Positions 23,203 to 53,224 of a stretch of DNA of 64,000 nucleotides are shown piece by piece (position 1 is the stretch's first letter; the number at the start of each line of letters is the position of its first letter). Source of the DNA: Candidatus Microgenomates bacterium (lineage in GTDB: Bacteria; Patescibacteriota; Microgenomatia; UBA8517; JACQJR01). The stretch covers positions 369,132 through 433,131 of the forward strand of contig JACQJR010000001.1 of the NCBI GenBank assembly GCA_016204995.1. The letters run 5' to 3'. The notes below the pieces were generated by a model. The model was not told the origin of the DNA. It searched no databases and worked only from the letters and a program-made list of their open reading frames with translations. Position numbers and translations under genes: made by a program.

Positions 23203-24240
23203 TTACAACAAGTATTTGTCAATGTTCTGTTGATGTTCTTCGGAGTTGGCCGCATAGTGGATTTGGCCGGTATTATCATGCAGATAGAACCAATAAGGAG
23301 AATCTTGGGGACTCGCTGCAGCTTTAATTGAGGACAGTCCAGGACTGGCAATTGGTCCGGGCGGCAAACCGCGATGTAAATAAGTATTGTAAGGAGAATT
23401 TATTTTTTTATCCGCCACTGTGGCTGGTTCCCACCAGGAACAATTTTCGTCCAGATGACGACCAGCCTTTGGCTGGGAGATTTGACCTGCCTGCGCAGGC
23501 AGGCATTTGAGATTGACAACTGCGTACTGCAGTGTCGCATCAGCTTGCAAAGGCCAACCAGCCTTTATTCTTTTCAGTAAAATACCGGCGACAATCGGCC
23601 GCTCCTCATCGGTTCTGGTTTCCCGCTCTATGATGGAAGCCAAGGTTACTAATTTTTCCAAAGTTAAATCTTGTTGCTTGGCTTGGGAAATTATGTCTGC
23701 GGAAACTTTTTTATCAAAAGTATCACGCAGTTTTTTCACCACTGCCCCGGCAGTAGCATTTCTGCTCAACAAATAAGTATCGGGGAAAAGGAAACCTTCC
23801 ATGCCTTGCGACTCTTTCATAAATTCTTTCAAAAAAATCTGCTGTTTTTCTGAAGTTAACTCCAAAGCAGTCGCTATTTTTTGGGCGATTTCTTCCCGGC
23901 GAAAACCTTCCGGAATAGTCACCCATAGAGCCACTGGCCCACGAATTAACTCTGCTACTAATTGAGGTAATGGTAAATTTTTAGTAATTCTAAAATCGCC
24001 GGCCGGGATTTTTTTAGTCCGATCGGCAATGGAAACGTAAACTTTAAAAGCCAAAGAAGAACGAATAAAACCTTGTTTTTCTAACTCATCACCGATTTGA
24101 GAAGCGCTTTCGCCTTTGATAATCACAAAGGGATAGTAAATTTTATCAGTGGAAGGAGCAATGGTAGCATCTCGCCACCACCACATCACGAGTAGGGGCA
24201 AGGCAATGATTATCAGAAGAAATGTAACAAGACGTTTCAT
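23203..24240 (-). CDS. mltG: endolytic murein transglycosylase MltG/YceG family; carries an 18-bp palindromic insertion encoding LPAQAG
   Basis: 345 aa; N-terminal TM; YceG-like core ...GEGFLFPDTYLL...LASIIERET...; synteny alaS...ruvX-small ORF-mltG as in Firmicutes. Confidence 0.85.
   Translation of the reverse strand: MKRLVTFLLIIIALPLLVMWWWRDATIAPSTDKIYYPFVIIKGESASQIGDELEKQGFIRSSLAFKVYVSIADRTKKIPAGDFRITKNLPLPQLVAELIRGPVALWVTIPEGFRREEIAQKIATALELTSEKQQIFLKEFMKESQGMEGFLFPDTYLLSRNATAGAVVKKLRDTFDKKVSADIISQAKQQDLTLEKLVTLASIIERETRTDEERPIVAGILLKRIKAGWPLQADATLQYAVVNLKCLPAQAGQISQPKAGRHLDENCSWWEPATVADKKINSPYNTYLHRGLPPGPIASPGLSSIKAAASPQDSPYWFYLHDNTGQIHYAANSEEHQQNIDKYLL
23486..23503. repeat. 18-bp perfect palindrome CCTGCCTGCGCAGGCAGG (core of the 36-bp element), in-frame in mltG
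   Basis: matches the two 9-bp arms of the 36-bp element without the inner 18 bp; encodes LPAQAG. Confidence 0.8.
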
Positions 24241-24819: not shown

Positions 24820-25505
24820 ATACTTGCCCCCGACTGCATCGGGGCTAACTCCGCTTTCACTATTAGCCGCCGCAAATAAGTTCCCGGCGGCACGCAGGTA
24901 ATTAAAGTCAGGTGGGGTTTATCGTTAGGTTGGGCCAGCACCGAGATTTCGGTCGGCGCCACCTCAAACATCTCTGAAATGACAAAACGATAAGTGATGC
25001 CATCATAGCTAACTATTATTTCATCTCCTTTCGCCAAAGTTGGCAGGGTAGAAAAAATAGATAAATAATTGGTAGGGCTAAAAAACTGCGGCAAAGTAGA
25101 ATGGCCAAAAATGACAGCATTACCCACTCGGCCTGGTATGGCCGTCCCCTTATAATGAATTAAATTTTTACTTAAGTCTTCGCCGGCAATTTCCACTGTC
25201 GCCTGGCTAATTTTTAATTTAGGAATTGATAAAGTATAGTATTTAATTTGAGAATTAGCTTCTGGCCGGTCGGGGAAATCCAAGCTGCCTACAAACCAAT
25301 TGGAAGCCCGAGTTAAATCTACGGGGCTATATTTTTGGCTATTGCTGTCTCCTACCGGAGATAAAAATTTAGAATCACTATCGCCCCGACTAAAGTTAGG
25401 GGCAGTAAACAATTCGTATGAAATAATAGGGAAAACGGCGCTGGTTAACACCAAGCCTCCCCCGATAATTAAAAAAATAGCCAATAACCGAAGCCAAAAC
25501 ATCAT
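24816..25505 (-). CDS. sortase-family transpeptidase
   Basis: 229 aa; N-terminal TM anchor; catalytic His (VIFGHS), TLITC cysteine motif, downstream Arg (RRLIV). Confidence 0.75.
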   Translation of the reverse strand: MMFWLRLLAIFLIIGGGLVLTSAVFPIISYELFTAPNFSRGDSDSKFLSPVGDSNSQKYSPVDLTRASNWFVGSLDFPDRPEANSQIKYYTLSIPKLKISQATVEIAGEDLSKNLIHYKGTAIPGRVGNAVIFGHSTLPQFFSPTNYLSIFSTLPTLAKGDEIIVSYDGITYRFVISEMFEVAPTEISVLAQPNDKPHLTLITCVPPGTYLRRLIVKAELAPMQSGASI

Positions 25506-27715
25506 TGTTCGGCAACCACCTTAATGGTAATGTTGTCGCTTTTTTGAGGCAGAAAATCGGACAGAAATGGCAAACGGGGAGAAAATTTAATGGAAGTACG
25601 AGAATAGCCTGGTAAAGCAGCCAGTTTTGTCTTAACCTCCGATTGGCTTTTACCAGCCAGTTGCGAAACCAGCTGTCTTTGATTAATCTGCGGCAGTAAA
25701 TTAGCTTGCGCTGTCACATTAATAGTCAGCACCTTATTTTTTTCTTTTTTCTCACCTGTCTGGCTAATGGAACTAAAACTAGCTGCTATATCACCCTCTT
25801 CTAAATTAAACTTCTCTGGCACTTTGGGACGCAAAACAGTTAATAGCTGGCTGTTTAACTGATCATGCGGTATGGTTACTGCTATTCCTTCCGCTTCTAG
25901 GTTTAACTTCAAGGTTTGTGCTTCCTCACCGACATTATGAGAAAATGAACGTCGCACAATGTTCATTTGGATTGATTCATTAATGACTGTTTCATCGCCA
26001 CTAACCTTCTGTCTAATATCTGTCTTAAATTTGTCGGTCAGTTCTGCCAACAGGTCTGTTTCCAGTTTTTGTCTATCTTCTTTGGCCACAGCCGGTACTT
26101 CTCGCGAGCTGCCGCCGGTAAAAACATTATCGTTTTTGGCAGCAAAACTATTGGTGGAAAAATTAGTGATCGCAAAACTATTGCCAGAGGCTAAATTGTA
26201 TTGGGTACCAATATCAGCCGCACTAATTACGGCTTTGGCTTGGCCTAGCACAATGTTGGGCAAAATGCCAGAGGCGGAGGCCACCGTCACCTGACTATCA
26301 AGACTGAACTTTAAACCGTTAGGACCAACTAAAATGGTATGAGCGGGAAAAGTTTTGGGCTGGGCGGTGTTATTGAAAATTATGACCTCTCCTTTGGCCC
26401 GATCTCCCACAGTTTTAGAACCGGTAGTGGAAGTAGTCTTTTCACCTTCCACGGTAGAAGAAATGGTCCGGCCGGCCACAATACCATCTCCGCTCCCACC
26501 AGTGGGATCAACCTGCAAAGTCAATTTTTCCTCAATTTTTTTAGGAGCAATATAAATAGTGAGCTGGGCCTTGGGTACAAAATACCACACTAAAGTAAAA
26601 ACTAAAATCGTTAATCCCCCTAAAATTAACCATATCTTCAACTTGCCTAAAAACCCACTTTTAGCAGAAACCGCATTAAAGAGGGAATTTAGTTTGGAAC
26701 CGGTCTCCGATCCTGATTTAATCGGGGCAGGCCCGCCTGCACCAACAGGCCTGTCTGCGCCAGCAGGCTCCACCACTTCCTCGTGGGTTTCCTGGAAACC
26801 GAAATCTTCTACTGGTGGTGTGACAGCAACTGGCAATTGCGGCTCTGGAGTCACTGAAGAAACCTTTTCCGTAGCAATTTCTTCCTCTACTACTGGTCTC
26901 CGGCCCTGGAAGGTCTCTGGCTCCGATTTAAGCGGGGCTGGTTCTGTCGCAGTGGTTAATTCCGGTTGAACCGGGGCTTCAGTGGAAGCAGCGACTGAAA
27001 TAGCGGATAATAACTCGTCCGATGTCAATCTTTCAATCCTGGGAGTATGCAGGAAAAAGGCCGAAGGCCATTCCCAGTTAACTAAATTTTGCCGTGCCTC
27101 CTCCAACTCGTTATTATTTCTGTTGTATAAAACTAACCGCGCAGGCAGTGATTCTCCGACGCCAAAACGGGATAAGCCCTCGGTAATATCATCTGCCAGC
27201 GATATACTGCGGCTGACCAGATGGGAATTAACAATTTTACCCGATCTAACCAATAACACTTCCGCTTCCTCTTCTTCAATACCAACTAAAATGGCCGAAA
27301 GGGGTGAGCCTTCTTTGTTTTTCAAAAAATGAATAATCGCTTCCGGTACTACCACAAAGCCTTTAGGTTTAAGTTCTAATTTTTCGCACAAGAGACGCAG
27401 GTGGGCCAGTTTTTCAGGAACAATATTACCATCTTCTATCCAGAAATTAGGCAAGCCAAAAACTACTGATAAAATTTCCTCCGGCGGCTCATTCATACTA
27501 CCTACTGCGGCTGATAAACTGTCATCAGCCGCCTGGACAAAAGATTCACTGTCCTGCCAAGCATCAGTCGTGCCGGCTGCCATTAATTCACCCTGACCGG
27601 ATAGAGTACGCCACAAACCGGCCTGAATCCAATTTTTACCAATCACAAAGGAAACAAATACTTCTTGCGGAGTTTCTTTTTTACCAATAATTTCCGTAAT
27701 GCTGGGCAATTTCAT
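25502..27715 (-). CDS. bitopic membrane protein: N-terminal cytoplasmic FtsA/PilM-like actin-fold domain, Pro-rich linker carrying repeat-element insertions, TM helix, large extracytoplasmic domain
   Basis: 737 aa; N-terminal region resembles PilM/FtsA subdomains (VFVSFVIGKNWIQAG..., AILVGIEEEEAEVLLVRSGKIV); TM KIWLILGGLTILVFTLVWYFV; the linker contains PAGADRPVGAG and PIKSG encoded by the palindromic elements. Confidence 0.5.
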   Translation of the reverse strand: MKLPSITEIIGKKETPQEVFVSFVIGKNWIQAGLWRTLSGQGELMAAGTTDAWQDSESFVQAADDSLSAAVGSMNEPPEEILSVVFGLPNFWIEDGNIVPEKLAHLRLLCEKLELKPKGFVVVPEAIIHFLKNKEGSPLSAILVGIEEEEAEVLLVRSGKIVNSHLVSRSISLADDITEGLSRFGVGESLPARLVLYNRNNNELEEARQNLVNWEWPSAFFLHTPRIERLTSDELLSAISVAASTEAPVQPELTTATEPAPLKSEPETFQGRRPVVEEEIATEKVSSVTPEPQLPVAVTPPVEDFGFQETHEEVVEPAGADRPVGAGGPAPIKSGSETGSKLNSLFNAVSAKSGFLGKLKIWLILGGLTILVFTLVWYFVPKAQLTIYIAPKKIEEKLTLQVDPTGGSGDGIVAGRTISSTVEGEKTTSTTGSKTVGDRAKGEVIIFNNTAQPKTFPAHTILVGPNGLKFSLDSQVTVASASGILPNIVLGQAKAVISAADIGTQYNLASGNSFAITNFSTNSFAAKNDNVFTGGSSREVPAVAKEDRQKLETDLLAELTDKFKTDIRQKVSGDETVINESIQMNIVRRSFSHNVGEEAQTLKLNLEAEGIAVTIPHDQLNSQLLTVLRPKVPEKFNLEEGDIAASFSSISQTGEKKEKNKVLTINVTAQANLLPQINQRQLVSQLAGKSQSEVKTKLAALPGYSRTSIKFSPRLPFLSDFLPQKSDNITIKVVAEQ
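26741..26781. repeat. degenerate copy of the 36-bp element in the linker of the 737-aa membrane protein gene
   Basis: GCAGGCCCGCCTGCACCAACAGGCCTGTCTGCGCCAGCAGGC shares TGTCTGCGCCAGCAGGC with the element; encodes EPAGADRPVGAG in the same relative frame. Confidence 0.6.
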
Positions 27716-31160: not shown

Positions 31161-31376
31161 ATGCAAAAAGTTCATGCTGTTGTCTGGCAAGAAGATAGTT
31201 GGTGGGTAGCCAAAGCTCTGGAGGTAGAAGTGGCTAGTCAGGGCAAAAGCGAAAAATCAGCTCTGGCTAATTTAAAAGAAGCACTAGAGCTATATTTTGA
31301 AGATCAAACGAAAGTAGAATTAACTCCAGTTCACTCACCGAAACTTCAGGATATGGCTATTCAAACAAATGCCTAA
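31161..31376 (+). CDS. hicB: HicB-family antitoxin (UPF0150-like); the ORF track starts at 31128 but the internal Met MQKVHAVVWQ is the likelier start
   Basis: HAVVWQEDSWWVAKALEV...SEKSALANLKEALELYFED matches the HicB N-terminal domain; overlaps the downstream hicA by 8 nt. Confidence 0.65.
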   Translation: MQKVHAVVWQEDSWWVAKALEVEVASQGKSEKSALANLKEALELYFEDQTKVELTPVHSPKLQDMAIQTNA

Positions 31377-31593
31377 ACTTTACTCTGCTAGGGAAATCAT
31401 TAAAACACTAAATAGGGCAGGTTTTACTATTGTCAGCCAAAGAGGCAGTCATATTAAATTATTTAAAAGAGAAAGGGATAAATCTTTTACTGCTATTGTG
31501 CCCAATCACAAACAAGTTGCCATCGGTACTTTTAACAGCATCTTGAAACAAGCCGGCATGACCAGAGAAGAATTTGAAAAGTGGATTAGATAA
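31369..31593 (+). CDS. hicA: HicA-family mRNA interferase toxin
   Basis: 74 aa; ...REIIKTLNRAGFTIVSQRGSHIKLFK... YcfA/HicA signature with conserved GSH. Confidence 0.75.
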   Translation: MPKLYSAREIIKTLNRAGFTIVSQRGSHIKLFKRERDKSFTAIVPNHKQVAIGTFNSILKQAGMTREEFEKWIR

Positions 31594-35080: not shown

Positions 35081-36730
35081 CTAGACTTCTACTACTACCG
35101 GAATGACAATGGGGCGACGGGAGGTTTCTTCCCATAAAAACGGCTCGGTCATAGCCACAATTTGCTCGCGGACAAAATGAACGTCTTTTAATTTCATCTT
35201 TTGCAAGCGTTGGAAAATCAAATTTTTTAATTTATTGTTAATTGCTTCTTCTGATTTGCCAAACAGGAAACCGCGGGTAATCATATCAATATTTATTAAT
35301 TGGCCACTGGCTGCTTCCCATTGAGCAATCACTGCCACAATTCCTTCCTGGGCTAAAGTTTTGCGGTCGCGCAAAATAACCGGCCCCACTTCACCTATCC
35401 CCATACTATCCACAAAAACTTCCCGCACCGGCACCTTACCAGCCACTTTCACCTGATGCTTGTCTATTACAATAGCATTATCCGCCTCTGGCAAAATTAT
35501 TTGCTCTTTTCTATATTTCATCTCATTTGCCAATAGGCGGAATCTGTGCATATGGCGTAAAGTTCCGCCAATTGGGATAAGAGCGCGAGGACGAGTTAAG
35601 GCAATTAACAAAGCAATTTCTGAATGACTGGCATGACCAGACACATGCAAATCATCGGCAATTTCCGCATAGGTAACTGACACGCCGCTGGCGGTTAATA
35701 AATCAATTAAGGCATGAATGGCTAGCTCATTGCCGGGAATATAATCGGTGGAAAAAAGCACGTGGTCGCCGCTGGTCAGTTTAATATGAGGATTTAACCC
35801 TTGAGCAATTTTATCTAAAGATGAACCCATCTGGCCTTGAGCCCCGGCCACAATCAAAGTTAATTTTTGCCTCGGAATTTTATGTAATTGTCGTGGGTCA
35901 ACCAAAGTACCAGAAGGAATTCGCAAATATCCTAGTCTTTGGGCCACCCGGGTAGTTTGCTCAAATGATCTTCCCACAAAGCCGACTTTACGGCCGTTTC
36001 TGACCGAAGCATCAATCGCCTGCTGCACCCGGGAAATATTGGAAGACATAGTGGTCATGATAAAACGGCCCTGAACGTGTCTAATCTCCCGATCAAACAT
36101 ATCATCCAGCGTACTTTCCGACGGAGTTACTCCTTCGTTTTCAATTCTCAAGCAATCTGAAAAAAGCAAATCCACTCCGGCATCGCCGGCCCGGGCAATG
36201 GCTGCCACATCGGAAATTTTGCCGTCAATCGGCGTCCAGTCAAATTTAAAATCACTGCCATGATAGACATTGCCGTAAGGAGTCCGGATAAAATAATGCC
36301 TGGAATCTGGAATAGAATGAGTAATGGGAATAGCCGTAATTTGAAAAGCTCCCAAAGTTAGCTGTTTATCAATCTCACGAAAATTAGCCCCGACGGCAAA
36401 TTCTTTTAGTTTCTCGCTAGCCAGCCCTAAAGTTAATTTACTGCCGTAAATAGGAATTTGTGAACCGCCTTGCAGTTTAGGTAAAACATAAGGCAGGGCG
36501 CCAATGTGATCTTCGTGACCATGGGTTAAAACTATTCCCTTAATTCTTTTTTCCTTGCCCCGTAAAACCGAAATATCAGGAATTACTAAATCTACCCCAA
36601 ACATTTCTTCCTGGGGAAAACCAAAGCCGCAATCTACAATTAAAATATCTCCCTCCGGCGCAATCTCATAAACGAACATGTTGGTCGTCACCCGACCAAA
36701 ACCGCCCAAATTATAGATTTTTAACATCAT
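35081..36730 (-). CDS. rnj: ribonuclease J (beta-CASP metallo-beta-lactamase RNase)
   Basis: 549 aa; LTHGHEDHIGALPY motif and beta-CASP region. Confidence 0.85.
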   Translation of the reverse strand: MMLKIYNLGGFGRVTTNMFVYEIAPEGDILIVDCGFGFPQEEMFGVDLVIPDISVLRGKEKRIKGIVLTHGHEDHIGALPYVLPKLQGGSQIPIYGSKLTLGLASEKLKEFAVGANFREIDKQLTLGAFQITAIPITHSIPDSRHYFIRTPYGNVYHGSDFKFDWTPIDGKISDVAAIARAGDAGVDLLFSDCLRIENEGVTPSESTLDDMFDREIRHVQGRFIMTTMSSNISRVQQAIDASVRNGRKVGFVGRSFEQTTRVAQRLGYLRIPSGTLVDPRQLHKIPRQKLTLIVAGAQGQMGSSLDKIAQGLNPHIKLTSGDHVLFSTDYIPGNELAIHALIDLLTASGVSVTYAEIADDLHVSGHASHSEIALLIALTRPRALIPIGGTLRHMHRFRLLANEMKYRKEQIILPEADNAIVIDKHQVKVAGKVPVREVFVDSMGIGEVGPVILRDRKTLAQEGIVAVIAQWEAASGQLINIDMITRGFLFGKSEEAINNKLKNLIFQRLQKMKLKDVHFVREQIVAMTEPFLWEETSRRPIVIPVVVEV

Positions 36731-37797
36731 GCTGGCAGATACTCCTTAATGTTACTTTCCGTAAGTTGCACTTGACTAGTTTTTCCCTCTACTATCAGTT
36801 TAGCTACTTTTCGCACAATTGCCTCAATGGTTCTTTCTAAAGTTCTCATCCCTGCATCATAACCTAATGGTCGCACAATTATCGGCCAGACGGAATCGGC
36901 AATTTGGACAGCTTGGGAATTAAGACCGGCTTCTGTTAAAGTCCGAGGCAATAAAAATTTACTGCCAATCACGATTTTTTCGCTATCGGTATAAGAGGGC
37001 ATGGGAATTACTTCCAACCGATCAAGGACGGCTGTCGCGATATTATTAGTATTATTGGCTGTCGCAATAAATAGAGCTTCTGATAAATCAAATGGGTAAT
37101 CAAGATAGCTATCAAAAAAAGCCACGTTTTGCTCCGGATCTAAAATTTCAACTAGTGCCCCCATAATAGAAGCCCGTGAGGTTTGTTCCACCCGATCAAT
37201 CTCGTCCAACAGTATCACCGGATTTTTGGCACCACTCCGAATTAAAGCTTTCATAATTTGGCCTGGTTCTGCTACCATGTCAAAACGAGGCCGACCCCGT
37301 AGCATCGCCACCTCTCCTAAACCGCCAAAGGGAATTCTGACAAAATTTCTACCTAAGGCCTGGCTAATTGATTTGGCAATCGTGGTTTTACCAGTACCGA
37401 CTAAACCGACGAAACATAAAATCGGCGCCCGCAGGGAATGATTACCTGCCTGCGCAGGCTTGTCTGCGCCAGCAGGCAGGTCTCCTTTTTCTTTTTTCAA
37501 TTTCATCACGGCCATATATTCCAAGACGCGTTCTTTCAAATCGTTTAGACCATAATGATTACTATCTAAAATTTGTTTAGCGTGGGTTAAATCCAGGGTG
37601 TCTGGCGTTCTTTTCTCCCAGGGTAAAGTTGTAACTACATCAATATATTCATCAAGTCTTTCGCGTTCAGTAAAAGGCATTTCGGAAGAGCTAAAGCGGG
37701 AGAGGTAATTATTAATCAGGTCAGCTAAATCACCCGGCAAAGAAGCTTGTTTAACTTTCTCGGAAAGCTTAGTTAATTCATCCGTTGGGACAGGCAT
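36727..37797 (-). CDS. Lon-like AAA+ ATPase module without N-terminal substrate domain or C-terminal S16 protease domain; carries a 36-bp in-frame palindromic insertion before Walker A
   Basis: 356 aa; HYGLNDLKERVLEYMAV, ILCFVGLVGTGKTT, VILLDEIDRV, EILDPEQN and YDAGMRTLER motifs typical of the Lon AAA+ domain; stop overlaps the rnj start (ATGA). Confidence 0.75.
   Translation of the reverse strand: MPVPTDELTKLSEKVKQASLPGDLADLINNYLSRFSSSEMPFTERERLDEYIDVVTTLPWEKRTPDTLDLTHAKQILDSNHYGLNDLKERVLEYMAVMKLKKEKGDLPAGADKPAQAGNHSLRAPILCFVGLVGTGKTTIAKSISQALGRNFVRIPFGGLGEVAMLRGRPRFDMVAEPGQIMKALIRSGAKNPVILLDEIDRVEQTSRASIMGALVEILDPEQNVAFFDSYLDYPFDLSEALFIATANNTNNIATAVLDRLEVIPMPSYTDSEKIVIGSKFLLPRTLTEAGLNSQAVQIADSVWPIIVRPLGYDAGMRTLERTIEAIVRKVAKLIVEGKTSQVQLTESNIKEYLPA
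37445..37480. repeat. 36-bp palindromic element (CCTGCCTGCGCAGGCTTGTCTGCGCCAGCAGGCAGG) inserted in-frame in the lon-like gene
   Basis: identical to 43062-43097; 9-bp terminal inverted repeats CCTGCCTGC/GCAGGCAGG; encodes LPAGADKPAQAG on the minus strand. Confidence 0.9.
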
Positions 37798-37806
37798 ACA
37801 ACTTAA

Positions 37807-40113
37807 TTATCTCTCATCTCGTCGTGATCTGAAAGGTCGCACTCCACGTCTTTCCGGCATAAAACGCGAAATAGGAAAATGCGGCGCCCGGCTCATTCCT
37901 CCCGGACGGCGGCCGAAATTACGCGGCCCGCGACTGTCGTTCCGATCAGATCTGACTGGACCACCACGATCCCTCCGATCATCAGTTTTCGCGCCTTCAC
38001 CATTTCTCATGGTTAAATTAATTCTACCCAACTCATCAATTTCCTTAACTTTGACAGTAACTTTTTGACCAATAGAAACTACTTCGTTGGGATCATTGAC
38101 AAATGAATCGGACAAATCAGAAATGTGGACTAAACCGTCTTTACCTGGCAAAATCTCCACAAAGGCCCCGAATGGCTGAATCCGTTTCACTTCCCCTTCG
38201 TAAACCTCCCCCGGCTGAACTTTTTTGGTTAAACCCTCTATCACGCTTCTGGCTTTCAGGACTGATTCATCACTTACGCCGCTGATATTAACTGTGCCGT
38301 CATCTTCCACCTCAATTTGAGCCCCGCTATCGGCCATAATCTTGCGGATCATCCGACCGCCCGGACCAATCACTTCGCCAATTAATTCGGTAGGAATATG
38401 CAGCATCACAATCCGGGGAGCGTATTCCGACAGCTTCTCCCGCGGCGCAGCTAAATGCTCGGTAATTTTAGCTAAAATATGCATTCTGCCTACTTTGGCC
38501 TTCTCCAAAGCTTGTTCCAAAATAGCCACTGTCAACTCTAACGTTTTGACATCTAATTGAATAGCGGTAATACCTTCACTCGTGCCTGCTACCTTAAAAT
38601 CCATATCGCCCGAGCCATCTTCAATACCGGCAATATCAGATAAAACTACAAAGTTGTCTTTATCTATTACCAAACCCATGGCAATACCGGCTACTGGCCG
38701 GGAAATTGGCACGCCGGCATCCATTAAGGCTAGCGTGGAACCGCAAGTAGAAGCCATAGAAGTGGAACCGTTGGAAGATAAAATTTCTGACACCACGTGA
38801 ATTGCATAGGGAAACTTTTCTTCACTAGGCAAAACTGGCATGAGAGCTCTTTCTGCCAAGGCTCCATGGCCGATTTCGCGGCGGTTAGGACTGCCAATCC
38901 GACCAGTTTCGCCAGTGGCATAAGGCGGCATGGAATAATAATGCATATAGCGCTTGGTTTCTTCGCCTTCGGCCGACTCTATCTTTTGTTCTAAACTAGG
39001 AGCACCTAGCGTTGCTACTGACAAAGCTTGAGTTTGGCCACGGGTAAAAATGGCTGAACCATGAGTGCGGGGCAAAATACCAGTTTGAACGGTAATTTGA
39101 CGAATTTCTTCTGGTTTACGACCATCTGGCCGAATACCTTTCAAAAGTTTATCTCTTAATCTTTTACGAACAATTTCTTCAAAAACGAAGGAGGCTTGTT
39201 GATCAGTGATGTGGAAATCTTCTTTAATGGCAGCCTTGATGGCAGCTGCTTCTTGCTCACTGGTACGGTTGGTAGCCCGGCCAATGGCCCATTCTTCAAT
39301 CTGATCACCATATTTTTTATCAATTTCGGCACTTTCTTTAATCTTGGCTGAAGAGGTTGGTAATTGTTTAGCTCCTACTTTTTGGACAAATTCGTTAATT
39401 CCGGTTTGTATAACTTTAATTTCGCGTTGTGCAGCAGTGATGGCTCCAATGATCTTTTCCTCGCTGATCTCACGAGAGCCTGCTTCTAACATTAAAATTG
39501 ATTCATCATGTCCAGTCACCACTAAATCAAGGTCGGAAAATTTCAATTCTGACTCTAAAGGATTAATAATAAAATCACCATTGATGGCGCCTACTCTAAC
39601 TACCCCGACTGGCCCCTTCCAAGGGGTACCAGCTAAAGCTAGAGCTGCTGAAGCTGCTACCGCTGATAAAACTGCCGGATCATTTTCCGCGTCAACCGAC
39701 AGGGTAGTTAAAACTACTTGGACTTCATCACGATAATCTTTAGGAAAGAGGGGACGAAGAGAGCGATCAATTAAACGACCGGACAGAATTGCCTCGTCAC
39801 TTGGCCTACCTTCTCGTTTGACCCATTGGCTACCTTTGATCCGGCCACCGGCGTAAAGTCTTTCCACATAATCAACCGTCATCGGCATATAACCAGGATC
39901 ATTAAGTAATGGTTTAACCACCACGGTCGCCAAAACTATTAAATCGCCATAGCGAGCCATGACCGCGCCGCTGGCAAAGCCGGCAATATCACCAGTTGAG
40001 AAAATTAATTTTCTGCCTGCGACTTCAAATTCGTGGGTAATCTTCTCACGAGTCATTTTTACTTGAGTAACTTTTTTTTGAGTTTCTTTTTTCATTCTTT
40101 CTTTGTCTAACAT
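37807..40113 (-). CDS. pnp: polyribonucleotide nucleotidyltransferase (PNPase) with Arg-rich C-terminal tail
   Basis: 768 aa; two RNase PH domains, KH and S1 domains; C-terminal DRRDRGGPVRSDRNDSRGPRNFGRRPGG... Confidence 0.95.
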   Translation of the reverse strand: MLDKERMKKETQKKVTQVKMTREKITHEFEVAGRKLIFSTGDIAGFASGAVMARYGDLIVLATVVVKPLLNDPGYMPMTVDYVERLYAGGRIKGSQWVKREGRPSDEAILSGRLIDRSLRPLFPKDYRDEVQVVLTTLSVDAENDPAVLSAVAASAALALAGTPWKGPVGVVRVGAINGDFIINPLESELKFSDLDLVVTGHDESILMLEAGSREISEEKIIGAITAAQREIKVIQTGINEFVQKVGAKQLPTSSAKIKESAEIDKKYGDQIEEWAIGRATNRTSEQEAAAIKAAIKEDFHITDQQASFVFEEIVRKRLRDKLLKGIRPDGRKPEEIRQITVQTGILPRTHGSAIFTRGQTQALSVATLGAPSLEQKIESAEGEETKRYMHYYSMPPYATGETGRIGSPNRREIGHGALAERALMPVLPSEEKFPYAIHVVSEILSSNGSTSMASTCGSTLALMDAGVPISRPVAGIAMGLVIDKDNFVVLSDIAGIEDGSGDMDFKVAGTSEGITAIQLDVKTLELTVAILEQALEKAKVGRMHILAKITEHLAAPREKLSEYAPRIVMLHIPTELIGEVIGPGGRMIRKIMADSGAQIEVEDDGTVNISGVSDESVLKARSVIEGLTKKVQPGEVYEGEVKRIQPFGAFVEILPGKDGLVHISDLSDSFVNDPNEVVSIGQKVTVKVKEIDELGRINLTMRNGEGAKTDDRRDRGGPVRSDRNDSRGPRNFGRRPGGMSRAPHFPISRFMPERRGVRPFRSRRDER

Positions 40114-40139
40114 CTAAATTCTAATATCTAAAATCTAAC

Positions 40140-40415
40140 TTATGGAAGCTTTTCCTCTTTTAATTGCGACATCAGTTTAGCGTATCTTGTTTTATCCCGT
40201 CTTTCTAAATAACTTAATAATCTTCTCCTTTTGGCTACCATTGATAAAAGACCGCGACGGGAATGATCATCTTTTTTATGAGTTTGCAAATGTTGAGCTA
40301 GTTTTTGAATTTGGACGGAAAGAAGTGCTATTTGTACTTCAGGACTGCCTGTATCTTTCTCTCCCTGACCAAATTTTTCAATGATTCTCTGCTTTTCTTG
40401 AGGCTCAAGTGCCAT
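40140..40415 (-). CDS. rpsO: 30S ribosomal protein S15
   Basis: 91 aa; [49 protein letters not shown]15 signature; upstream of pnp. Confidence 0.85.
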
Positions 40416-40532
40416 AACCTAAACGAGAAACAAAGTAAATCGAAATTCCCGAAGAACCTTGTTTTCAATCCTTTTCGTGAATTATATCACTAAATTTCTG
40501 CTTTAGCAAGCAGTAAATAATTACCTTAAAGA

Positions 40533-41111
40533 TTAGGCTGTGTGTCGTTGTGAAGGATGACGTAATTTTTCCAGAGCTCTAGTTAAAGATTGTTCTACCT
40601 CATCCGGGGAAATGTTCATACTTTGGGCAATTACTTCTAATTCCTCGGGCCGACCGGTAAACAAACCAAAATATCTATGGATAATTAAATTTTCTCTCTC
40701 TGTTAAGATCCCAAGCACTTCTTTTACTTCATCCTTAATACCTTCAGGATATTTTTCATTGTATTTCGCTTTAATTTCCTCGTATGATAAGGAAGTATCA
40801 ACTGCCTCTCCTACTTGTTTTGCCATCCTTACTCTTTGCCTTTCCTGTCGTTCTTCATCTTGTTTAGCTAAATAATCGGCAGGCCTATTAACTATCTCTT
40901 GAAAATCAGGATAATCCTCAAATATATTCATTAATAACTTATCTTCTGCCGTTAATTTAGTCTGTAAATCTATATATGCTTGAGGTGTACCCTCCGGCCA
41001 GCGCCCATCTTTTCTTCGTGTGTTTCTCTCTTCTTCGGTCATAGAAGCTTCCCAATTAAAGAATTCCTGCCATTCTTGAGGAACAAATTTTGGTTGTCTT
41101 TCTTCTGTCAT
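40533..41111 (-). CDS. hypothetical protein with C-terminal sigma-70 region-4-like HTH
   Basis: 192 aa; the C-terminal 60 aa (LTERENLIIHRYFGLFTGRPEELEVIAQSMNISPDEVEQSLTRALEKLRHP) resemble sigma-70 region 4.2; no region 2. Confidence 0.45.
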   Translation of the reverse strand: MTEERQPKFVPQEWQEFFNWEASMTEEERNTRRKDGRWPEGTPQAYIDLQTKLTAEDKLLMNIFEDYPDFQEIVNRPADYLAKQDEERQERQRVRMAKQVGEAVDTSLSYEEIKAKYNEKYPEGIKDEVKEVLGILTERENLIIHRYFGLFTGRPEELEVIAQSMNISPDEVEQSLTRALEKLRHPSQRHTA

Positions 41112-41156
41112 TTGAGAATATTATAATACCGTTTCACTAAAAGTCAATCTCTATAT

Positions 41157-41357
41157 TTAAGTTAGCTCTTCTTTTTTAATTCCAGATTGTCTAAGTATAC
41201 TTTGCAAGGTGCCTGGTTTTAAATCTTTATTGTGATATGGCACTGTAACTCTTAAATCACTTTTTCTATATAATCTATGACTACCTTTTTGTCGGATAAA
41301 TTGAAACCCTTCTTTTTCCAAGACTTTAATAATTTGTCTTGGTTTGACAGATTTCAT
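41157..41357 (-). CDS. hicA: HicA-family mRNA interferase toxin
   Basis: 66 aa; QIIKVLEKEGFQFIRQKGSHRLYRK... with conserved GSH. Confidence 0.75.
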   Translation of the reverse strand: MKSVKPRQIIKVLEKEGFQFIRQKGSHRLYRKSDLRVTVPYHNKDLKPGTLQSILRQSGIKKEELT

Positions 41358-41593
41358 AGACTAACTTGGATGGGGGAAACCACAATGGGTTTAGATTCAC
41401 GGGGAATTTCTGTTCCTTTTAAATCTTCTACATAAAGTTCTGCCGCTTCTTTAATATTATCTAAAGCTTCTTCAAAAAAATCCCCTTCAGAAATACAACC
41501 TGGCAAAGCAGGAATTGACACTGAATATCCCCCACCCTTTTCAGGCTCAAAAACCGCTGTATAAGTTAAAACTTGAGCCATTTTCTTGACCAT
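41354..41593 (-). CDS. hicB: HicB-family antitoxin (UPF0150-like)
   Basis: 79 aa; YTAVFEPEKGGGYSVSIPALPGCISEGDFFEEALDNIKEAAELYVED; 4-nt overlap with the downstream hicA. Confidence 0.65.
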   Translation of the reverse strand: MVKKMAQVLTYTAVFEPEKGGGYSVSIPALPGCISEGDFFEEALDNIKEAAELYVEDLKGTEIPRESKPIVVSPIQVSL

Positions 41594-41671
41594 GATGAAG
41601 ATATTATATCAAAAATAAGAAGGGAATCAAACCTCCGCTTTTTAAAAATTCTGAAATTGGGATTTGATTGC

Positions 41672-42487
41672 CTATGGCAATGCTGTGCCCTTGTAGACTT
41701 TGGGACCGAGCCATTCTTCCGGCGGATTTTCTTCCGCTGTGGCTACTTGCTGTTCGTTAATCACGCCACCCTTAATATGACCCTTCATTCGCATTAACTT
41801 GCCTGCCACTTCAAAAGTTTCCGGCCGGACGCGATTGGAGGTGAAATTAGCGGTTGCTCCCACTATTCCCATTAGTAGATTAGCCGCCATATCTTCATCT
41901 AACGGCAAATTATTATTGAGAATGTTAATAGCCATAATTTCACAAATAGAGGAAGTTTGCCGGTCAATCAGTTCTATCACCCGGCCGCGTCTGGCAAAAG
42001 CCGGAGTCGCCTGGACAGTAATAAATTGAGACACCGAATTTAAATCTTCCAATATTTGCTGATCTAATTGTACCTCGTTAATAATGCCCACCAGGATTAC
42101 CACATCGGCGTTCATACCACCCATTTGACTGCGGACTTGTTCCGGCGTAGGAGAAGCAAGATCTGCTTTAGGAACAATTGTTAAACGAAATTCTCCATGA
42201 TCAATGTCATAACTAACTTTTTCAATATTGGTGGCCGGATAACCAGCCAGACTAATAGTTAAATTGCTGCTACCCAGTTCGGTAGTTATTTTATCTACTC
42301 CCACCAGACGATTAAATTCTACCAGCATCGGAGAAGAACAGGAAATAGTCGTTTGTTTACCGTATTTATTTAAAGACAGAAAAAGAGATAGGCCGGCGGC
42401 CACTGTGTCAAAATCCGGCTCTTTCGGCAAAAGTATTAAAAAGTTTTTGCCTTGGGCAATAGCGTCTTGAAAATTTTTAGGTTCCAT
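41672..42487 (-). CDS. DHH/DHHA1-like phosphoesterase-fold protein (NrnA-like position after infB) with degenerate catalytic motifs
   Basis: 271 aa; N-terminal FLILLPKEPDFDTVAAGLSL resembles the NrnA start but the DHH triad is not obvious; synteny nusA-infB-X. Confidence 0.45.
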   Translation of the reverse strand: MEPKNFQDAIAQGKNFLILLPKEPDFDTVAAGLSLFLSLNKYGKQTTISCSSPMLVEFNRLVGVDKITTELGSSNLTISLAGYPATNIEKVSYDIDHGEFRLTIVPKADLASPTPEQVRSQMGGMNADVVILVGIINEVQLDQQILEDLNSVSQFITVQATPAFARRGRVIELIDRQTSSICEIMAINILNNNLPLDEDMAANLLMGIVGATANFTSNRVRPETFEVAGKLMRMKGHIKGGVINEQQVATAEENPPEEWLGPKVYKGTALP

Positions 42488-42496
42488 TTATATTAA

Positions 42497-43936
42497 TTAC
42501 CTTACGGACTCTAACACATCTCCAATCTGAAAGTCAACAGTACCTGCAAAAATAAGGCCGCATTCTTGACCTTTTTCCACTTTATCCACTGTTTTGTCTG
42601 CTTGTTTCATGGAACTTATCTTAACCTTACCGATAACTTCCCCTTTTCTACTTAAAGTTAAATTATCGCCGCGGGCAATTCGGCCTTCAGCGACACGAAT
42701 TCCGGCAATTTTTTGATTCGCCCCAAAAGGAAATTGAGCAATAATTTCTGCCCTGCCTAAAATTTTAACTTCTTCTGCCACTTCTCCAGCCAAAGCTTTG
42801 GCTATCCAGTCAAAAATTTCATAAATAATGGCAAAAGAGAAAATTTTAACCTTGTCTTCTTCGGCTTGCTGGAGGACTTCTGGCGGGACTTTGACCCCGA
42901 AGGCAATAATGGTAGCGCCAAAAGAACTAGCCAGCGCTACATCGCCGGCAGTCACTTCACCAGTACCGCTAGATAAAACTACTACTTCGCTAGACAATCC
43001 TGCCATTAACGCTTCTAGTCTGCCGGCCGTATCAGCCTTGATAATTAAAGAGAGTTTTGCTCCTGCCTGCGCAGGCTTGTCTGCGCCAGCAGGCAGGCCT
43101 TCTTTAACTTCTTGTTGTTTAACGTTAGCTGATTCCACCTTCACCACCCCACCTTCGCCCGCAAGTTTTACCTGACTGCCGACTGTCGGTACTTTTTCCA
43201 ACCCTAAAATTTGCCCGGCCTGTCCCGGCAACACTGACTCTAAATTTTGGCCTTGATCACCGATTAAAGCCTTAACTTTTCCCACTACTTCACCAGCTGT
43301 AATTTTATCGCCCAAATTAAGCTGTCCATTTCTGACAATGACAGTGGCTAAGGCTCCCTTCCGGCTGTCAAATTGCGATTCAATCACTGTAGCTTCTAAG
43401 ACGGCTTCGCTGTCGCCTTTAATCTCGTGAATTTCACTTACCAAACTAATCATTTCTAGTAAATGAGAAATTCCCTGACCGGTTTTACTGGATACTTCCG
43501 TCACCACAATATCGCCGCCGCGACCCTCCAGAAGAATTCCTTCTTTTTCTAGTTCTTGTTTGACTCGCTCTGGTTGGGCAGTCGGTAAATCAACTTTAGT
43601 TAAAACAACGATAAAAGGCACCTGGGCGGCGCGGATAAATTGCAAAGACTCCCTAGTTTGCGGTTTAACCCCATCATCGGCTGCCACAATTAATAACACA
43701 ATATCAGCCACATTGGCTCCCCGTGAACGCATTTGAGAAAAAGCGGCATGGCCGGGAGTATCTATAAAAGTGATGGGTTGAGAGTTATGAGTTATGAGGT
43801 AAGCGCCGATGTGCTGGGTAATACTGCCTGCTTCCCGAGAGGCTACGTTAGTTTTACGGATCGCGTCTAACAGGGAAGTTTTGCCATGATCAACATGGCC
43901 TAAAACGGCGACAATCGGTGAAAGTGATATATTCAT
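42497..43936 (-). CDS. infB: translation initiation factor IF-2, minimal form starting at the G domain; carries the 36-bp in-frame palindromic insertion
   Basis: 479 aa; [27 protein letters not shown] motifs; C-terminal IF2 beta-barrel; insertion LPAGADKPAQAG in domain II. Confidence 0.9.
   Translation of the reverse strand: MNISLSPIVAVLGHVDHGKTSLLDAIRKTNVASREAGSITQHIGAYLITHNSQPITFIDTPGHAAFSQMRSRGANVADIVLLIVAADDGVKPQTRESLQFIRAAQVPFIVVLTKVDLPTAQPERVKQELEKEGILLEGRGGDIVVTEVSSKTGQGISHLLEMISLVSEIHEIKGDSEAVLEATVIESQFDSRKGALATVIVRNGQLNLGDKITAGEVVGKVKALIGDQGQNLESVLPGQAGQILGLEKVPTVGSQVKLAGEGGVVKVESANVKQQEVKEGLPAGADKPAQAGAKLSLIIKADTAGRLEALMAGLSSEVVVLSSGTGEVTAGDVALASSFGATIIAFGVKVPPEVLQQAEEDKVKIFSFAIIYEIFDWIAKALAGEVAEEVKILGRAEIIAQFPFGANQKIAGIRVAEGRIARGDNLTLSRKGEVIGKVKISSMKQADKTVDKVEKGQECGLIFAGTVDFQIGDVLESVR
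43062..43097. repeat. 36-bp palindromic element, in-frame in infB
   Basis: identical to 37445-37480; same reading frame; encodes LPAGADKPAQAG. Confidence 0.9.
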
Positions 43937-44010
43937 AATTCAAATAATCGTAATACCCAGAAAACTCAGCTTGCCAGAACTTCAGAGAATCAGATAATCT
44001 GATAGGTAAA

Positions 44011-45072
44011 TTAACTAGCTTGCTCATGTTCTGGCTCTACTGGTTTACTGATACTTTGATTTTCCGAGTTCTCCGAGTTGTCTGGTTCTTTGATAGGGCT
44101 CTCCGAGCCCTCAATATCAATATCAAAACCAGTTAGGATAGCGGCCAGTCTAACATTTTGCCCTTCCTTACCAATCGCTAGAGAAAGTTGATCAGTAGGC
44201 GCTTTGACGATCGCTTTTTTATTTTTAGGATCAAGCGAAACTGACAAATTCTGGGCTGGCGCGAGAGCCGACGTAATCAGCTGCGTCATTTCATCCGTCC
44301 AGGGAATAACATCAATTTTTTCTCCGCCTAATTCATTAATAACTGCCTGGACTCGCACGCCTTTTTGGCCAACACAAGAGCCGACCGGATCAACTCCGGA
44401 GGTGCTGGATTTAACAGCAATTTTAGTGCGGACCCCAGGTTCTCTGGCAATAGCATAAATTTCCACCGAACCGCCAGCAATTTCCGGAACTTCTCTGGCA
44501 AATAATTTTTTGACAAATTCAGGATCTGCCCGGGAAACGATTAAATCCTTGCCTTTAGCTCCTTCGCGAATTTCTTTTAATAAGAAAGTTAATCTTTGGG
44601 AAAGCTCTAGCCTTTCATTGGGAATTCGTTCACCGGCCGGAAAAAGGGCTTCAGTTTTACCTAAATCCACCCGGGCATTTTGGCCGTCAAAGCGCAAAAT
44701 CACCCCGCTGACCAGTTGACCAATCCGACTCTCAAAACCAGCTAAAATGGCTTCCTTTTCTACCTCCCGGGTTTTTTGTCTGAAGATCTGTCGAAAAGTT
44801 TGAGCGGCAATTCTGGTAAAACCAGGAGGCGTCACTTCAGTCTTTTTTTTACCTTCAACTTTGAAAATTGAAACTTCACCGGTCAGAGAATTAATTTCTG
44901 CGGTAAATTCTTCTTCCTCGGCAACTTCCACGCCTTGTTCCCGCATTTCCCGGCGATAGGCCCCAATTAAGGCCAGCTTTAACTGATCCATTAAAACTTC
45001 CGGCGTTAAACCCCGCTCGGCAGCAAGAGCCGTTAGTGCTTGGGCAAATTCTGATCTTGGTAATTGCGGCAT
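44011..45072 (-). CDS. nusA: transcription termination/antitermination factor NusA
   Basis: 353 aa; S1 and two KH domains (GVDPVGSCVGQKGVRVQAV..., LAIGKEGQNVRLAA); acidic C-terminal tail. Confidence 0.9.
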   Translation of the reverse strand: MPQLPRSEFAQALTALAAERGLTPEVLMDQLKLALIGAYRREMREQGVEVAEEEEFTAEINSLTGEVSIFKVEGKKKTEVTPPGFTRIAAQTFRQIFRQKTREVEKEAILAGFESRIGQLVSGVILRFDGQNARVDLGKTEALFPAGERIPNERLELSQRLTFLLKEIREGAKGKDLIVSRADPEFVKKLFAREVPEIAGGSVEIYAIAREPGVRTKIAVKSSTSGVDPVGSCVGQKGVRVQAVINELGGEKIDVIPWTDEMTQLITSALAPAQNLSVSLDPKNKKAIVKAPTDQLSLAIGKEGQNVRLAAILTGFDIDIEGSESPIKEPDNSENSENQSISKPVEPEHEQAS

Positions 45073-53158: not shown

Positions 53159-53224
53159 CTTTAGGTTCAATTTTACAAATTTTGATAAATTTTCGAACCT
53201 AAATCATTTTTCAAACTTACACTC
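53131..53224. repeat. 94-bp repeat element copy 1 (internally palindromic, MITE-like); left boundary of the GC-rich insert
   Basis: identical over 94 of 94 bp to 55877-55970; terminal inverted repeats GAGTGTAAGTTTGAAAA / TTTTCAAACTTACACTC and inner AGGTTC...GAACCT. Confidence 0.9.

What the first reader, a model, noticed from the sequence alone, without database searches (positions are those of the whole stretch)
37445..37480. 36-bp palindromic element inserted in-frame into several unrelated essential genes (RPE-like)
Directly visible: the identical 36-mer CCTGCCTGCGCAGGCTTGTCTGCGCCAGCAGGCAGG, with 9-bp terminal inverted repeats, occurs at 37445-37480 inside the Lon-like AAA+ gene, just before Walker A, and at 43062-43097 inside infB domain II. 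In both places it is 12 codons long and in the same frame, adding LPAGADKPAQAG to each protein. An 18-bp perfect-palindrome core (23486-23503) adds LPAQAG to MltG. A degenerate copy (26741-26781) adds EPAGADRPVGAG to the linker of the 737-aa membrane protein. A 36-bp identity shared between two otherwise unrelated genes cannot come from common descent of the genes; it implies a mobile or proliferating element that coding regions tolerate. The only well-known parallel I can name is the Rickettsia palindromic elements, which insert in-frame into protein genes. I am not aware of this being described for CPR-like genomes.
Basis: seen in the sequence. Interest (0 to 1): 0.85.

Follow-up and report, generated by a model that had tools for sequence, protein, structure and literature searches.

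The report
Tiny GC-rich palindrome inserted inside genes
A Candidatus Microgenomates (CPR) bacterium carries an 18/36-base GC-rich hairpin sequence copied in-frame into disordered loops of at least four unrelated genes, a miniature counterpart of the selfish palindromes known from Rickettsia genes and yeast mitochondria.

Summary
The identical 36-mer sits at 37445-37480 (Lon-type AAA+ gene) and 43062-43097 (IF2). Its 18-bp perfect-palindrome core is at 23486-23503 (MltG/YceG). A 27/36 diverged copy is at 26736-26771 (737-aa protein). All four interrupt a codon after its second base and read LPA...(Q)AG. The element is 72% GC in a 43% GC window and has no stop codon in any of its six frames. 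None of 120 Lon and 120 IF2 homologues has the block. It is a clean insertion without target duplication, in length-variable loops that AlphaFold models as low-confidence coil. Independent assemblies from four sequencing runs match the window exactly and break inside both 36-mers, as a repeat longer than k would cause.

Two findings are new. An equidistant relative has the core (17/18 nt) at the same MltG site, although third codon positions are saturated. Another lineage has that site empty. A third lineage has a different 24-bp palindrome in frame in the same IF2 linker.

I read it as a proliferating mini-palindrome family, analogous to RPEs and mitochondrial GC clusters but not a member of either. 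The mobilising machinery and the genome-wide copy number are unknown. A diagnostic 23-mer found no related copy in three public collections.

The parts
37445..37480 (-). 36-bp element, copy A. It is in frame in the Lon-type AAA+ gene and encodes LPAGADKPAQAG (residues 107-118).
   Evidence: Exact match. Translation. Absent from 119 homologues, a clean 12-aa insertion before the Walker A strand. Lies in coil 105-126 whose 10-residue blocks average pLDDT 55-76. Logan contigs from independent runs end or start inside it.
43062..43097 (-). 36-bp element, copy B, identical to copy A. It is in frame in IF2 and encodes LPAGADKPAQAG (residues 281-292).
   Evidence: Exact match. Translation. Absent from 120 homologues and located in a hypervariable linker. 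The segment 263-291 has pLDDT below 50. Logan contigs from three runs end 27 nt into it, and 3'-side contigs start inside it.
23486..23503 (.). 18-bp perfect-palindrome core. It is in frame in MltG/YceG and encodes LPAQAG after the first Cys of a Cys-x(n)-Cys loop.
   Evidence: Exact match. Translation. Most homologues lack it. The orthologous site in L136 carries CCTGCCTGCGCAAGCAGG. The site is empty in L138.
26736..26771 (-). Diverged copy (27/36 identical, with an exact 17-mer). It encodes EPAGADRPVGAG in the low-complexity linker of the 737-aa protein.
   Evidence: Repeat family D3. Sequence and flanks. Translation. Same codon phase as the other copies.
36727..37797 (-). Host gene 1: Lon-type AAA+ ATPase without a protease domain. 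It is identical to MBI4059010.1 from a Candidatus Microgenomates bacterium.
   Evidence: Pfam AAA and Lon_lid. 100% match to P0001. Accession and 609,565-bp contig.
42497..43936 (-). Host gene 2: translation initiation factor IF2 (short form, 479 aa).
   Evidence: Pfam GTP_EFTU, EF-G_D2 and IF-2. Homologues.
23203..24240 (-). Host gene 3: MltG/YceG endolytic transglycosylase.
   Evidence: Pfam YceG, E = 1.6e-75. Homologues.
25502..27715 (-). Host gene 4: 737-aa protein with no Pfam family.
37481..37496 (+). T-rich flank (TCTCCTTTTTCTTTTT) that follows copy A on the antisense (+) strand. Together with the hairpin it scores as an intrinsic-terminator-like site.
   Evidence: One of the two terminator-like hits listed first for 36000-44500. 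On the coding strand this flank is the native KKEKG coding sequence, which is conserved in homologues.
43098..43113 (+). T-rich flank (CCTTCTTTAACTTCTT) that follows copy B on the antisense (+) strand. It is also terminator-like.
   Evidence: Flank similarity to copy A is 11/16 by my own count of the two flanks as aligned in family D3.

Best explanation
This is a family of very small, non-autonomous, GC-rich palindromic DNA elements. The family has an 18-bp perfect-palindrome core and a 36-bp derivative, which is the core with 18 further bases at its dyad centre. The element has been copied into several unrelated chromosomal genes of this Candidatus Microgenomates lineage.

Shown: each copy is a precise insertion without target-site duplication. 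Each splits a codon after its second base. Each is read through as a Pro/Ala/Gly-rich peptide (LPA...QAG) within a length-variable loop that AlphaFold models as low-confidence coil. Two copies are identical (young), one is diverged (older), and one is shared with a distant relative (oldest or recurrent).

Inferred: the surviving copies are those whose position and phase give a harmless flexible loop. The other five frames give Cys/Arg/Trp-rich peptides. Copying is hairpin-dependent. It could be single-strand transposition by a trans-acting HUH/Y1-type enzyme, which leaves no target duplication. Alternatively it could be template switching or short-patch conversion between hairpins at replication forks. 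The enzyme was not identified.
For: - Identical 36-mers in Lon-type AAA+ and IF2, plus a core copy and a diverged copy; none expected by chance.
- The element is 72% GC against 43% for the window. It has 9-bp terminal inverted repeats, no stop in six frames, and all four copies are in phase 2.
- It forms stable hairpins: RNA -23 and -11 kcal/mol, DNA -13 to -14 kcal/mol.
- It is a clean insertion relative to 119 Lon homologues and 120 IF2 homologues. Removing it restores the native codon (GA|T to GAT).
- The syntenic sister contig lacks it.
- It lies in low-confidence coil in both AlphaFold models.
- It is not an assembly artefact. Logan contigs from SRR12113383, -384, -420 and -430 are 100% identical to the window and end or start inside both 36-mers, as a repeat longer than k = 31 requires.
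- In MltG the orthologous site is occupied in L136 (17/18 nt) and empty in L138, which has an uninterrupted (TCAAATG)x5 tract.
- An analogous but unrelated 24-bp palindrome lies in frame in the same IF2 linker of GCA_016198435.1.
Against: - Only four copies were seen. The rest of the genome could not be read.
- The diagnostic 23-mer found no related copy in GTDB representative genomes, JGI metagenomes or IMG/VR.
- There is no target-site duplication and no conserved target motif.
- No clear intergenic copy was found.
- No HUH/RAYT/TnpB gene is present in the window. The only transposase is IS21-type, and no match to the element's 9-mer end lies next to it.
- The MltG core is far better conserved than the surrounding gene: 17/18 against 56% gene-wide identity, P about 5e-4. 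Third positions match 5/6 against 41.5% expected, P about 0.05. This fits constraint on the DNA or RNA better than neutral junk.
- Uniform phase and orientation could reflect function rather than purifying selection.
Confidence: 0.6

Rival explanations
1. There is no dedicated mobility. The 36-mer spread between pre-existing core copies by ectopic short-patch gene conversion or template switching at hairpins, and the cores themselves are ancient loop sequences.
For: The 36-mer is exactly the core with 18 nt added at its centre, and the added piece is made of core segments (from the sequence). The MltG core is shared with a distant relative. There is no target-site duplication and no transposase.
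Against: Lon and IF2 homologues show no core-like sequence at those sites in any relative. A pre-existing core would therefore itself have needed insertion. Nine-base arms are very short for conversion.
Confidence: 0.17
2. The hairpin is a selected functional element at the DNA or RNA level. Possible roles are an intrinsic terminator for antisense transcription, a protein-binding site, or a ribosome-pausing hairpin at domain boundaries. The peptide would be a by-product.
For: On the antisense strand both 36-mers are followed by T-rich tracts and are the two terminator-like sites listed first for 36000-44500. The MltG core shows nucleotide-level conservation across saturated divergence. Both 36-mer copies sit at inter-domain linkers.
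Against: The core copy and the diverged copy lack T-tracts. The diverged copy has lost its hairpin advantage (z = -0.19). The T-tract next to the Lon copy is native Lys/Glu coding sequence conserved in homologues without the element. Only a few copies are present in 64 kb.
Confidence: 0.13
3. The element is transcribed but skipped by the ribosome. This would be programmed translational bypassing, as for GC-cluster-derived 'byps' in Magnusiomyces mitochondria or T4 gene 60.
For: GC-rich hairpin insertions in coding regions are bypassed in Magnusiomyces capitatus mitochondria (PMC8811140).
Against: Every copy has a length that is a multiple of three, has no stop codon and is in frame, so bypassing is not needed. 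No matched take-off and landing codons flank the copies.
Confidence: 0.03
4. The shared sequence is a chance or native low-complexity motif, or an assembly or chimera artefact.
For: The host loops are low-complexity and variable in length.
Against: None of 100 shuffles gave a match. Identity is at the nucleotide level across unrelated genes. Both flanks are collinear with orthologues. Four independent read sets reproduce the junctions.
Confidence: 0.02

Closest known systems
Rickettsia palindromic elements (RPEs)
   Same: Palindromic repeats inserted in frame into unrelated housekeeping genes of a reduced genome. They are translated as extra peptide segments compatible with the protein fold (PMC10969869, read).
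   Different: RPEs are about 150 bp, form ten families, and have 44 copies in R. conorii. They are confined to Rickettsia (PMC10969869). The element here is 18-36 bp, occurs in a CPR bacterium, and only four copies were seen. I ran no sequence comparison with an RPE library.
Yeast and fungal mitochondrial GC clusters
   Same: Short GC-rich palindromic clusters in an AT-richer genome. They are considered transposable, occur as in-frame insertions in the var1 coding region, and merge and shuffle to form new clusters (PMC8811140). The size class and the 'core plus nested insertion' anatomy match best.
   Different: GC clusters are mitochondrial and mostly intergenic. They carry AG/TAG terminal repeats taken as target duplications, and in Magnusiomyces they are bypassed in translation (PMC8811140). 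Here there is no terminal duplication, the host is bacterial, and all clear copies are genic.
REP/REPIN elements mobilised by RAYT (HUH Y1) transposases; IS200/IS605-derived palindromic elements
   Same: Imperfect palindromes of 20-40 bp that form hairpins. From my own knowledge of the family, insertion leaves no target-site duplication and acts on single-stranded hairpins.
   Different: From my own knowledge, REPs are extragenic, carry a conserved GTAG at the 5' end, occur in hundreds of copies, and are linked to a RAYT gene. None of these features is seen here.
Bacterial MITEs (for example Correia, ERIC, BOX)
   Same: Non-autonomous elements with terminal inverted repeats. They occasionally give in-frame fusions with host ORFs (PMC10969869).
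   Different: MITEs are tens to hundreds of bp, have target-site duplications and have a parent IS with matching ends. Here the element is 18-36 bp, has no duplication, and no parent was found.
[quoted passage not shown]
   Same: Coding DNA with dyad symmetry that is thought to be mobilised within and between genomes (PMC2996958).
   Different: PARCELs encode 25-residue units in tandem arrays within ORFs of unknown function. They are not single insertions into conserved housekeeping genes.

Membership tests
Rickettsia palindromic elements (RPE) | Element length of about 100-150 bp, belonging to one of the described RPE families of Rickettsia | tested here: not met
   The element is 18 or 36 bp. 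The host is a Candidatus Microgenomates bacterium. RPE size is taken from PMC10969869. No RPE sequence library was available for a direct comparison.
Rickettsia palindromic elements (RPE) | In-frame insertion into unrelated ORFs at positions compatible with the protein fold | tested here: met
   There are four host genes, all copies in phase 2. The block is an insertion relative to homologues. It lies in low-pLDDT coil.
Rickettsia palindromic elements (RPE) | Tens of copies per genome | tested here: inconclusive
   Four copies occur in 64 kb. The rest of the 609-kb contig could not be read. Collection scans found no related copy. Logan contig ends fall 1-3 nt short of the two-copy expectation, which hints at further copies.
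MITE | Terminal inverted repeats | tested here: met
   The 9-bp ends are CCTGCCTGC and GCAGGCAGG.
MITE | Target-site duplication flanking the element | tested here: not met
   The Lon and IF2 flanks share no repeat. Removing exactly 36 bp restores the codon and the orthologous sequence. The TCAAAT repeats around the MltG copy belong to a native heptamer microsatellite that is also present at the empty site in L138.
MITE | A parent insertion sequence with matching ends | tested here: not met
   This test covers the window only. The one transposase is IS21-type (56093-57758), and the 9-mer scan (up to 1 mismatch) lists no match between 54921 and 59632, so none lies at its ends.
REP/REPIN-RAYT | Extragenic location | tested here: not met
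   All four clear copies lie inside ORFs.
REP/REPIN-RAYT | Conserved GTAG at the 5' end and an associated RAYT (Y1 transposase) gene | tested here: not met
   Neither end of the element carries GTAG (sequence). Pfam scans of 39 window ORFs found no Y1_Tnp family. About 30 mostly housekeeping ORFs in the window and the rest of the genome were not tested.
Mitochondrial GC clusters | Short GC-rich palindrome in an AT-richer genome, with in-frame occurrence in coding sequence | tested here: met
   GC is 72% against 43%. The hairpins are stable. All copies are in frame.
Mitochondrial GC clusters | AG/TAG terminal repeats (target duplication) and a mitochondrial host | tested here: not met
   No terminal repeats are present. 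The host is bacterial.
Programmed translational bypass elements (byps, T4 gene 60) | The insert disrupts the frame or carries a stop, and matched take-off and landing codons flank it | tested here: not met
   The length is a multiple of three and no frame has a stop. The flanking codons differ. Whether the block is actually translated cannot be tested with these tools.

The most novel reading that the evidence does not exclude
CPR bacteria may host a previously unrecognised class of 'protein-friendly' hairpin elements. These would be 18-36-bp GC-rich palindromes, with lineage-specific sequences, that a conserved trans-acting machinery inserts into coding DNA in a fixed codon phase. They would create new flexible loops in essential proteins, and their DNA or RNA hairpin would itself be kept by selection, for example as an antisense terminator. 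Three results fit this reading: the 17/18-nt conservation of the MltG copy between lineages with about 66% RpoB identity, the empty orthologous site in a third lineage, and a different in-frame palindrome in the same IF2 linker of another lineage.
Probability: 0.15. Interest if true: 0.85.

Novelty: new variant of a known kind. Interest (0 to 1): 0.6.

Why it matters
In-frame palindromic insertions are a proposed route by which selfish DNA creates new protein segments. Well-documented cases are essentially Rickettsia RPEs and mitochondrial GC clusters.

A much smaller version in a CPR bacterium, inside IF2, a Lon-type ATPase and MltG, would extend the phenomenon to a very large and poorly understood branch of bacteria with reduced genomes.

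It would also help explain lineage-specific loop insertions in CPR proteins. It gives a practical warning too: repeats of this length break k = 31 assemblies inside essential genes, as seen in the Logan contigs.

If the hairpin is also under nucleotide-level selection, it would be an example of mobile DNA domesticated inside coding sequence.

Four full-text searches found no description of such elements in CPR or Patescibacteria.

Tried and rejected
1. Listing all proteins that contain LPAGADKPAQAG failed. A 12-position profile hidden in a 40-column alignment worked locally (E about 4).

2. The generic pattern CCTGCCTGC-N(0-30)-GCAGGCAGG is not specific. It hit at least 120 IMG/VR stretches, mostly high-GC phage contigs. 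The exact 18-mer occurs in only 25 stretches.

3. The diagnostic 23-mer CAGGCYTGTCTGCGCCAGCAGGC hit only an unrelated Pantoea-type gene in genome contigs and metagenome contigs. It hit nothing in IMG/VR.

4. BLAST of the 36-mer against GenBank phages gave only chance-level partial hits in mycobacteriophages.

5. Rfam gave no family anywhere in the window.

6. Pfam found no HUH/RAYT/TnpB gene among the 39 window ORFs scanned.

7. The search for further family members gave no convincing new copy. GC-rich hairpins are enriched (12 against 3.9 expected for stems of at least 8 bp). Apart from the known copies, only ordinary coding hairpins and one intergenic hairpin appeared.

8. I could not decide whether LPAQAG in the phage-like contig L089 is an insertion. 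The homologue alignments do not cover the site.

9. The sister contig L126 (GCA_964442455.1) has no element in 16 syntenic kb.

Full report
**Observation**

The 36-mer CCTGCCTGCGCAGGCTTGTCTGCGCCAGCAGGCAGG is present, identical, at 37445-37480 and 43062-43097. It occurs nowhere else in the window at up to 3 mismatches, and none of 100 dinucleotide shuffles gave a match. The 18-bp perfect palindrome CCTGCCTGCGCAGGCAGG is at 23486-23503. A diverged copy lies in register at 26736-26771, with 27/36 identity and an exact 17-mer.

All host genes are on the minus strand (Pfam; translations):

| Gene | Coordinates | Peptide added |
|---|---|---|
| Lon-type AAA+ ATPase without protease domain | 36727-37797 | LPAGADKPAQAG |
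| IF2 | 42497-43936 | LPAGADKPAQAG |
| MltG/YceG | 23203-24240 | LPAQAG |
| 737-aa protein, no Pfam family | 25502-27715 | EPAGADRPVGAG |

Every copy starts after the second base of a codon. The element is 72% GC against 43% for the window, and none of its six frames contains a stop.

**Source**

The Lon-type protein is 100% identical to MBI4059010.1 from a Candidatus Microgenomates bacterium. That protein lies on a 609,565-bp contig. The next best homologue is only 65% identical, so no close sister genome is available.

**It is an insertion**

- **Lon.** In an alignment of 120 Lon-type homologues, only the source protein has the block. The closest relatives read KLSREKGG-ENSLRAPILC where this protein reads KLKKEKGD-LPAGADKPAQAG-NHSLRAPILC. 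At the DNA level the element splits GA|T. Removing exactly 36 bp restores GAT AAT CAT.
- **IF2.** The block lies in the hypervariable linker after the domain-II barrel. None of 120 homologues has it.
- **Sister contig.** The syntenic 16 kb of the sister genome GCA_964442455.1 has no element.
- **Target duplication.** There is none, and the flanks share no conserved motif.
- **Structure.** The AlphaFold Lon model has mean pLDDT 91. The block (107-118) lies in coil 105-126, where 10-residue blocks average 55-76. The IF2 model has mean pLDDT 87.6, and residues 263-291 are below 50.

**Anatomy**

- The ends are 9-bp inverted repeats.
- The 36-mer is exactly the core with 18 extra bases at its dyad centre. 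Those bases are themselves made of core segments (this follows from the sequences).
- RNA hairpins are stable: -23 kcal/mol for the 36-mer and -11 for the core. The diverged copy has lost the advantage (z = -0.19).
- DNA hairpins are -13 to -14 kcal/mol.
- The other five reading frames would give Cys/Arg/Trp-rich peptides.

**Independent support from raw data**

Logan assemblies from SRR12113383, -384, -420 and -430 contain contigs that are 100% identical to the window. These contigs end or start inside both 36-mers.

| Junction | Element bases included | Runs |
|---|---|---|
| Lon copy, 5' side | 29 | 2 |
| IF2 copy, 5' side | 27 | 3 |
| 3' sides | 28, 30 and 26 | one contig each |

 I recall from memory, not from any tool output, that Logan uses k = 31. 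On that basis a 36-bp repeat must break such graphs, so the junctions are real.

Some ends fall 1-3 nt short of what two copies alone predict. Further copies or variants that share flank bases would explain this. That is an inference, not a demonstration.

**Distribution**

A diagnostic 23-mer found only an unrelated Pantoea-type gene in the GTDB representative genomes and the JGI metagenomes. It found nothing in IMG/VR. This particular sequence therefore looks lineage-restricted.

The MltG site told a different story.

- The closest full-length homologue, from Hainich groundwater (ERZ1292632), reads CLPAQAGQMSNVKC. It carries CCTGCCTGCGCAAGCAGG at the same position, embedded in a (TCAAATG)n microsatellite.
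- A soil-metagenome homologue has the same microsatellite uninterrupted, which is an empty site.
- The homologue in GCA_016198435.1 has a different loop.
- RpoB identities among the three lineages with data are 65.6-68.6%, so they are roughly equidistant.
- The two MltG genes are 56% identical at the nucleotide level, and 34% at third positions. The element is 17/18 identical (P about 5e-4). Five of its six third positions match, against 41.5% expected (P about 0.05).

This leaves three possibilities: an ancient insertion under nucleotide-level constraint with a later loss, recurrent insertion at a hotspot, or transfer between lineages. I cannot decide among them.

Separately, the IF2 linker of GCA_016198435.1 holds a different in-frame 24-bp palindrome, GCCAGAGGC-TGGTCC-GCCTCTGGC (-18 kcal/mol). 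This suggests that lineage-specific hairpin insertions may be common in these bacteria.

**Mechanism**

My best reading, at about 0.6, is a proliferating mini-palindrome family. Copies persist where they add a harmless flexible loop.

- Shown: precise insertion, no target duplication, fixed phase, loop location, and copies of different ages.
- Inferred: hairpin-dependent copying by a trans-acting enzyme or by template switching.
- Not identified: the enzyme. The window holds no HUH/RAYT/TnpB gene, only an IS21-type transposase with no match to the element's 9-mer end beside it.

The rival readings are:

- Conversion between pre-existing cores.
- A selected DNA or RNA function. On the antisense strand both 36-mers plus their T-rich flanks are the two terminator-like sites listed first for 36000-44500.
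- Translational bypass, which is not needed here because every copy is in frame and free of stops.

**Comparison with known systems**

The behaviour matches Rickettsia RPEs: in-frame palindromes in unrelated genes (PMC10969869). In size and anatomy the closest match is the yeast mitochondrial GC clusters. These are short GC-rich palindromes that occur as in-frame var1 insertions and merge into new clusters (PMC8811140).

The element is a member of neither family. It also fails the defining tests for MITEs (no target duplication, no parent IS) and for REP/RAYT elements (intragenic, no GTAG, no RAYT gene). Four literature searches found no description in CPR.

**Limits**

- Only 64 kb of the genome was readable.
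- The motif search over the protein universe failed.
- Translation of the block is assumed, not shown.
- Orthologues of the 737-aa protein were not examined.

Noticed in passing
window 23462-23476: A second mini-hairpin, CCAGCC-AAA-GGCTGG (-9.8 kcal/mol as RNA), lies 9 nt downstream (coding strand) of the core in the same MltG Cys-Cys loop. Logan contigs from three runs (SRR12113430, -383, -384) all begin at 23473, inside this hairpin. That implies a reproducible assembly-graph branch, which could be a population variant or a repeat boundary next to the element.
   Followed up: partly
L140:2167-2190 (GCA_016198435.1, IF2 gene): A different 24-bp GC-rich palindrome, GCCAGAGGCTGGTCCGCCTCTGGC, has 9-bp arms and lies in frame (ARGWSASG) in the same IF2 linker of another Microgenomates lineage. 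I could not check whether it is multi-copy in that genome.
   Followed up: partly
L136:2835-2900; L138 (about 1160-1200): In two relatives the Cys-x6-Cys loop of MltG is encoded by a heptamer microsatellite, (TCAAATG)n, which reads NVKCQMSNVKC. The L138 contig turns into unrelated GC-rich sequence right after the repeat and is probably chimeric.
   Followed up: partly
window 53128-53224 and 55874-55970 (partial third copy at 63391-63419): Two 99%-identical 97-nt AT-rich repeats, each with about 30-nt internal inverted arms (MITE-like), bracket a 2.65-kb segment of higher GC (47-50%). The segment holds ORFs without Pfam hits and, judged from its sequence alone, what looks like a C-terminal fragment of an AAA+ ATPase (55511-55849). 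A Logan contig starts inside the second repeat.
   Followed up: partly
window 53602-53631 and 53737-53745: An intergenic 30-nt hairpin, CCTGCCTGACGCGA-CTCTC-TCGCGTCAGGC, shares the first 8 and last 5 bases of its arms with the element. A lone exact right end, GCAGGCAGG, lies 127 nt downstream. This may be a divergent or longer intergenic relative of the family, or it may be chance.
   Followed up: partly
window 53396-53470 (-): ARAGORN found a tRNA-Gly(TCC) gene between the first AT-rich repeat and the higher-GC segment. Rfam at gathering threshold reported nothing in the window.
   Followed up: no
window 56093-58424: An IS21-type pair (rve/Mu-transposase C and IstB) at 56093-57758 is followed by an AbiEii toxin gene at 57768-58424.
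   Followed up: no
L089:893-910 and L120:8187-8204 (IMG/VR, 38% GC, phage-like): The exact 18-mer core lies in frame as LPAQAG in an RGP-family (PF03214) glycosyltransferase-like gene of a contig whose neighbouring ORFs looked to me like phage terminase, portal and capsid genes (no family search was run on those). I could not determine whether it is an insertion there.
   Followed up: partly
IMG/VR loci such as L100 (4 copies), L026 (3 copies), L005: The 20-bp perfect palindrome CCTGCCTGCCGGCAGGCAGG occurs in at least 30 IMG/VR stretches, mostly high-GC (35 occurrences), often several times per contig. It looks like a host- or phage-specific repeat unrelated to the CPR element.
   Followed up: no
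window 31369-31593, 41354-41593, 29807-30445, 47431-47793: The window carries a HicA toxin gene, a HicB-like antitoxin gene, a Fic/DOC gene and a 23S rRNA intervening-sequence protein gene, scattered among housekeeping operons.
   Followed up: no
window 27730-29076: The alanyl-tRNA synthetase ORF is only 448 aa and matches the catalytic domain only. The sister genome has a 616-aa form with the tRNA_SAD domain.
   Followed up: no
window 1-64000: Cumulative GC skew falls almost monotonically, and nearly all genes are on the minus strand. I infer that the window lies within one replichore with genes co-oriented with replication.
   Followed up: no
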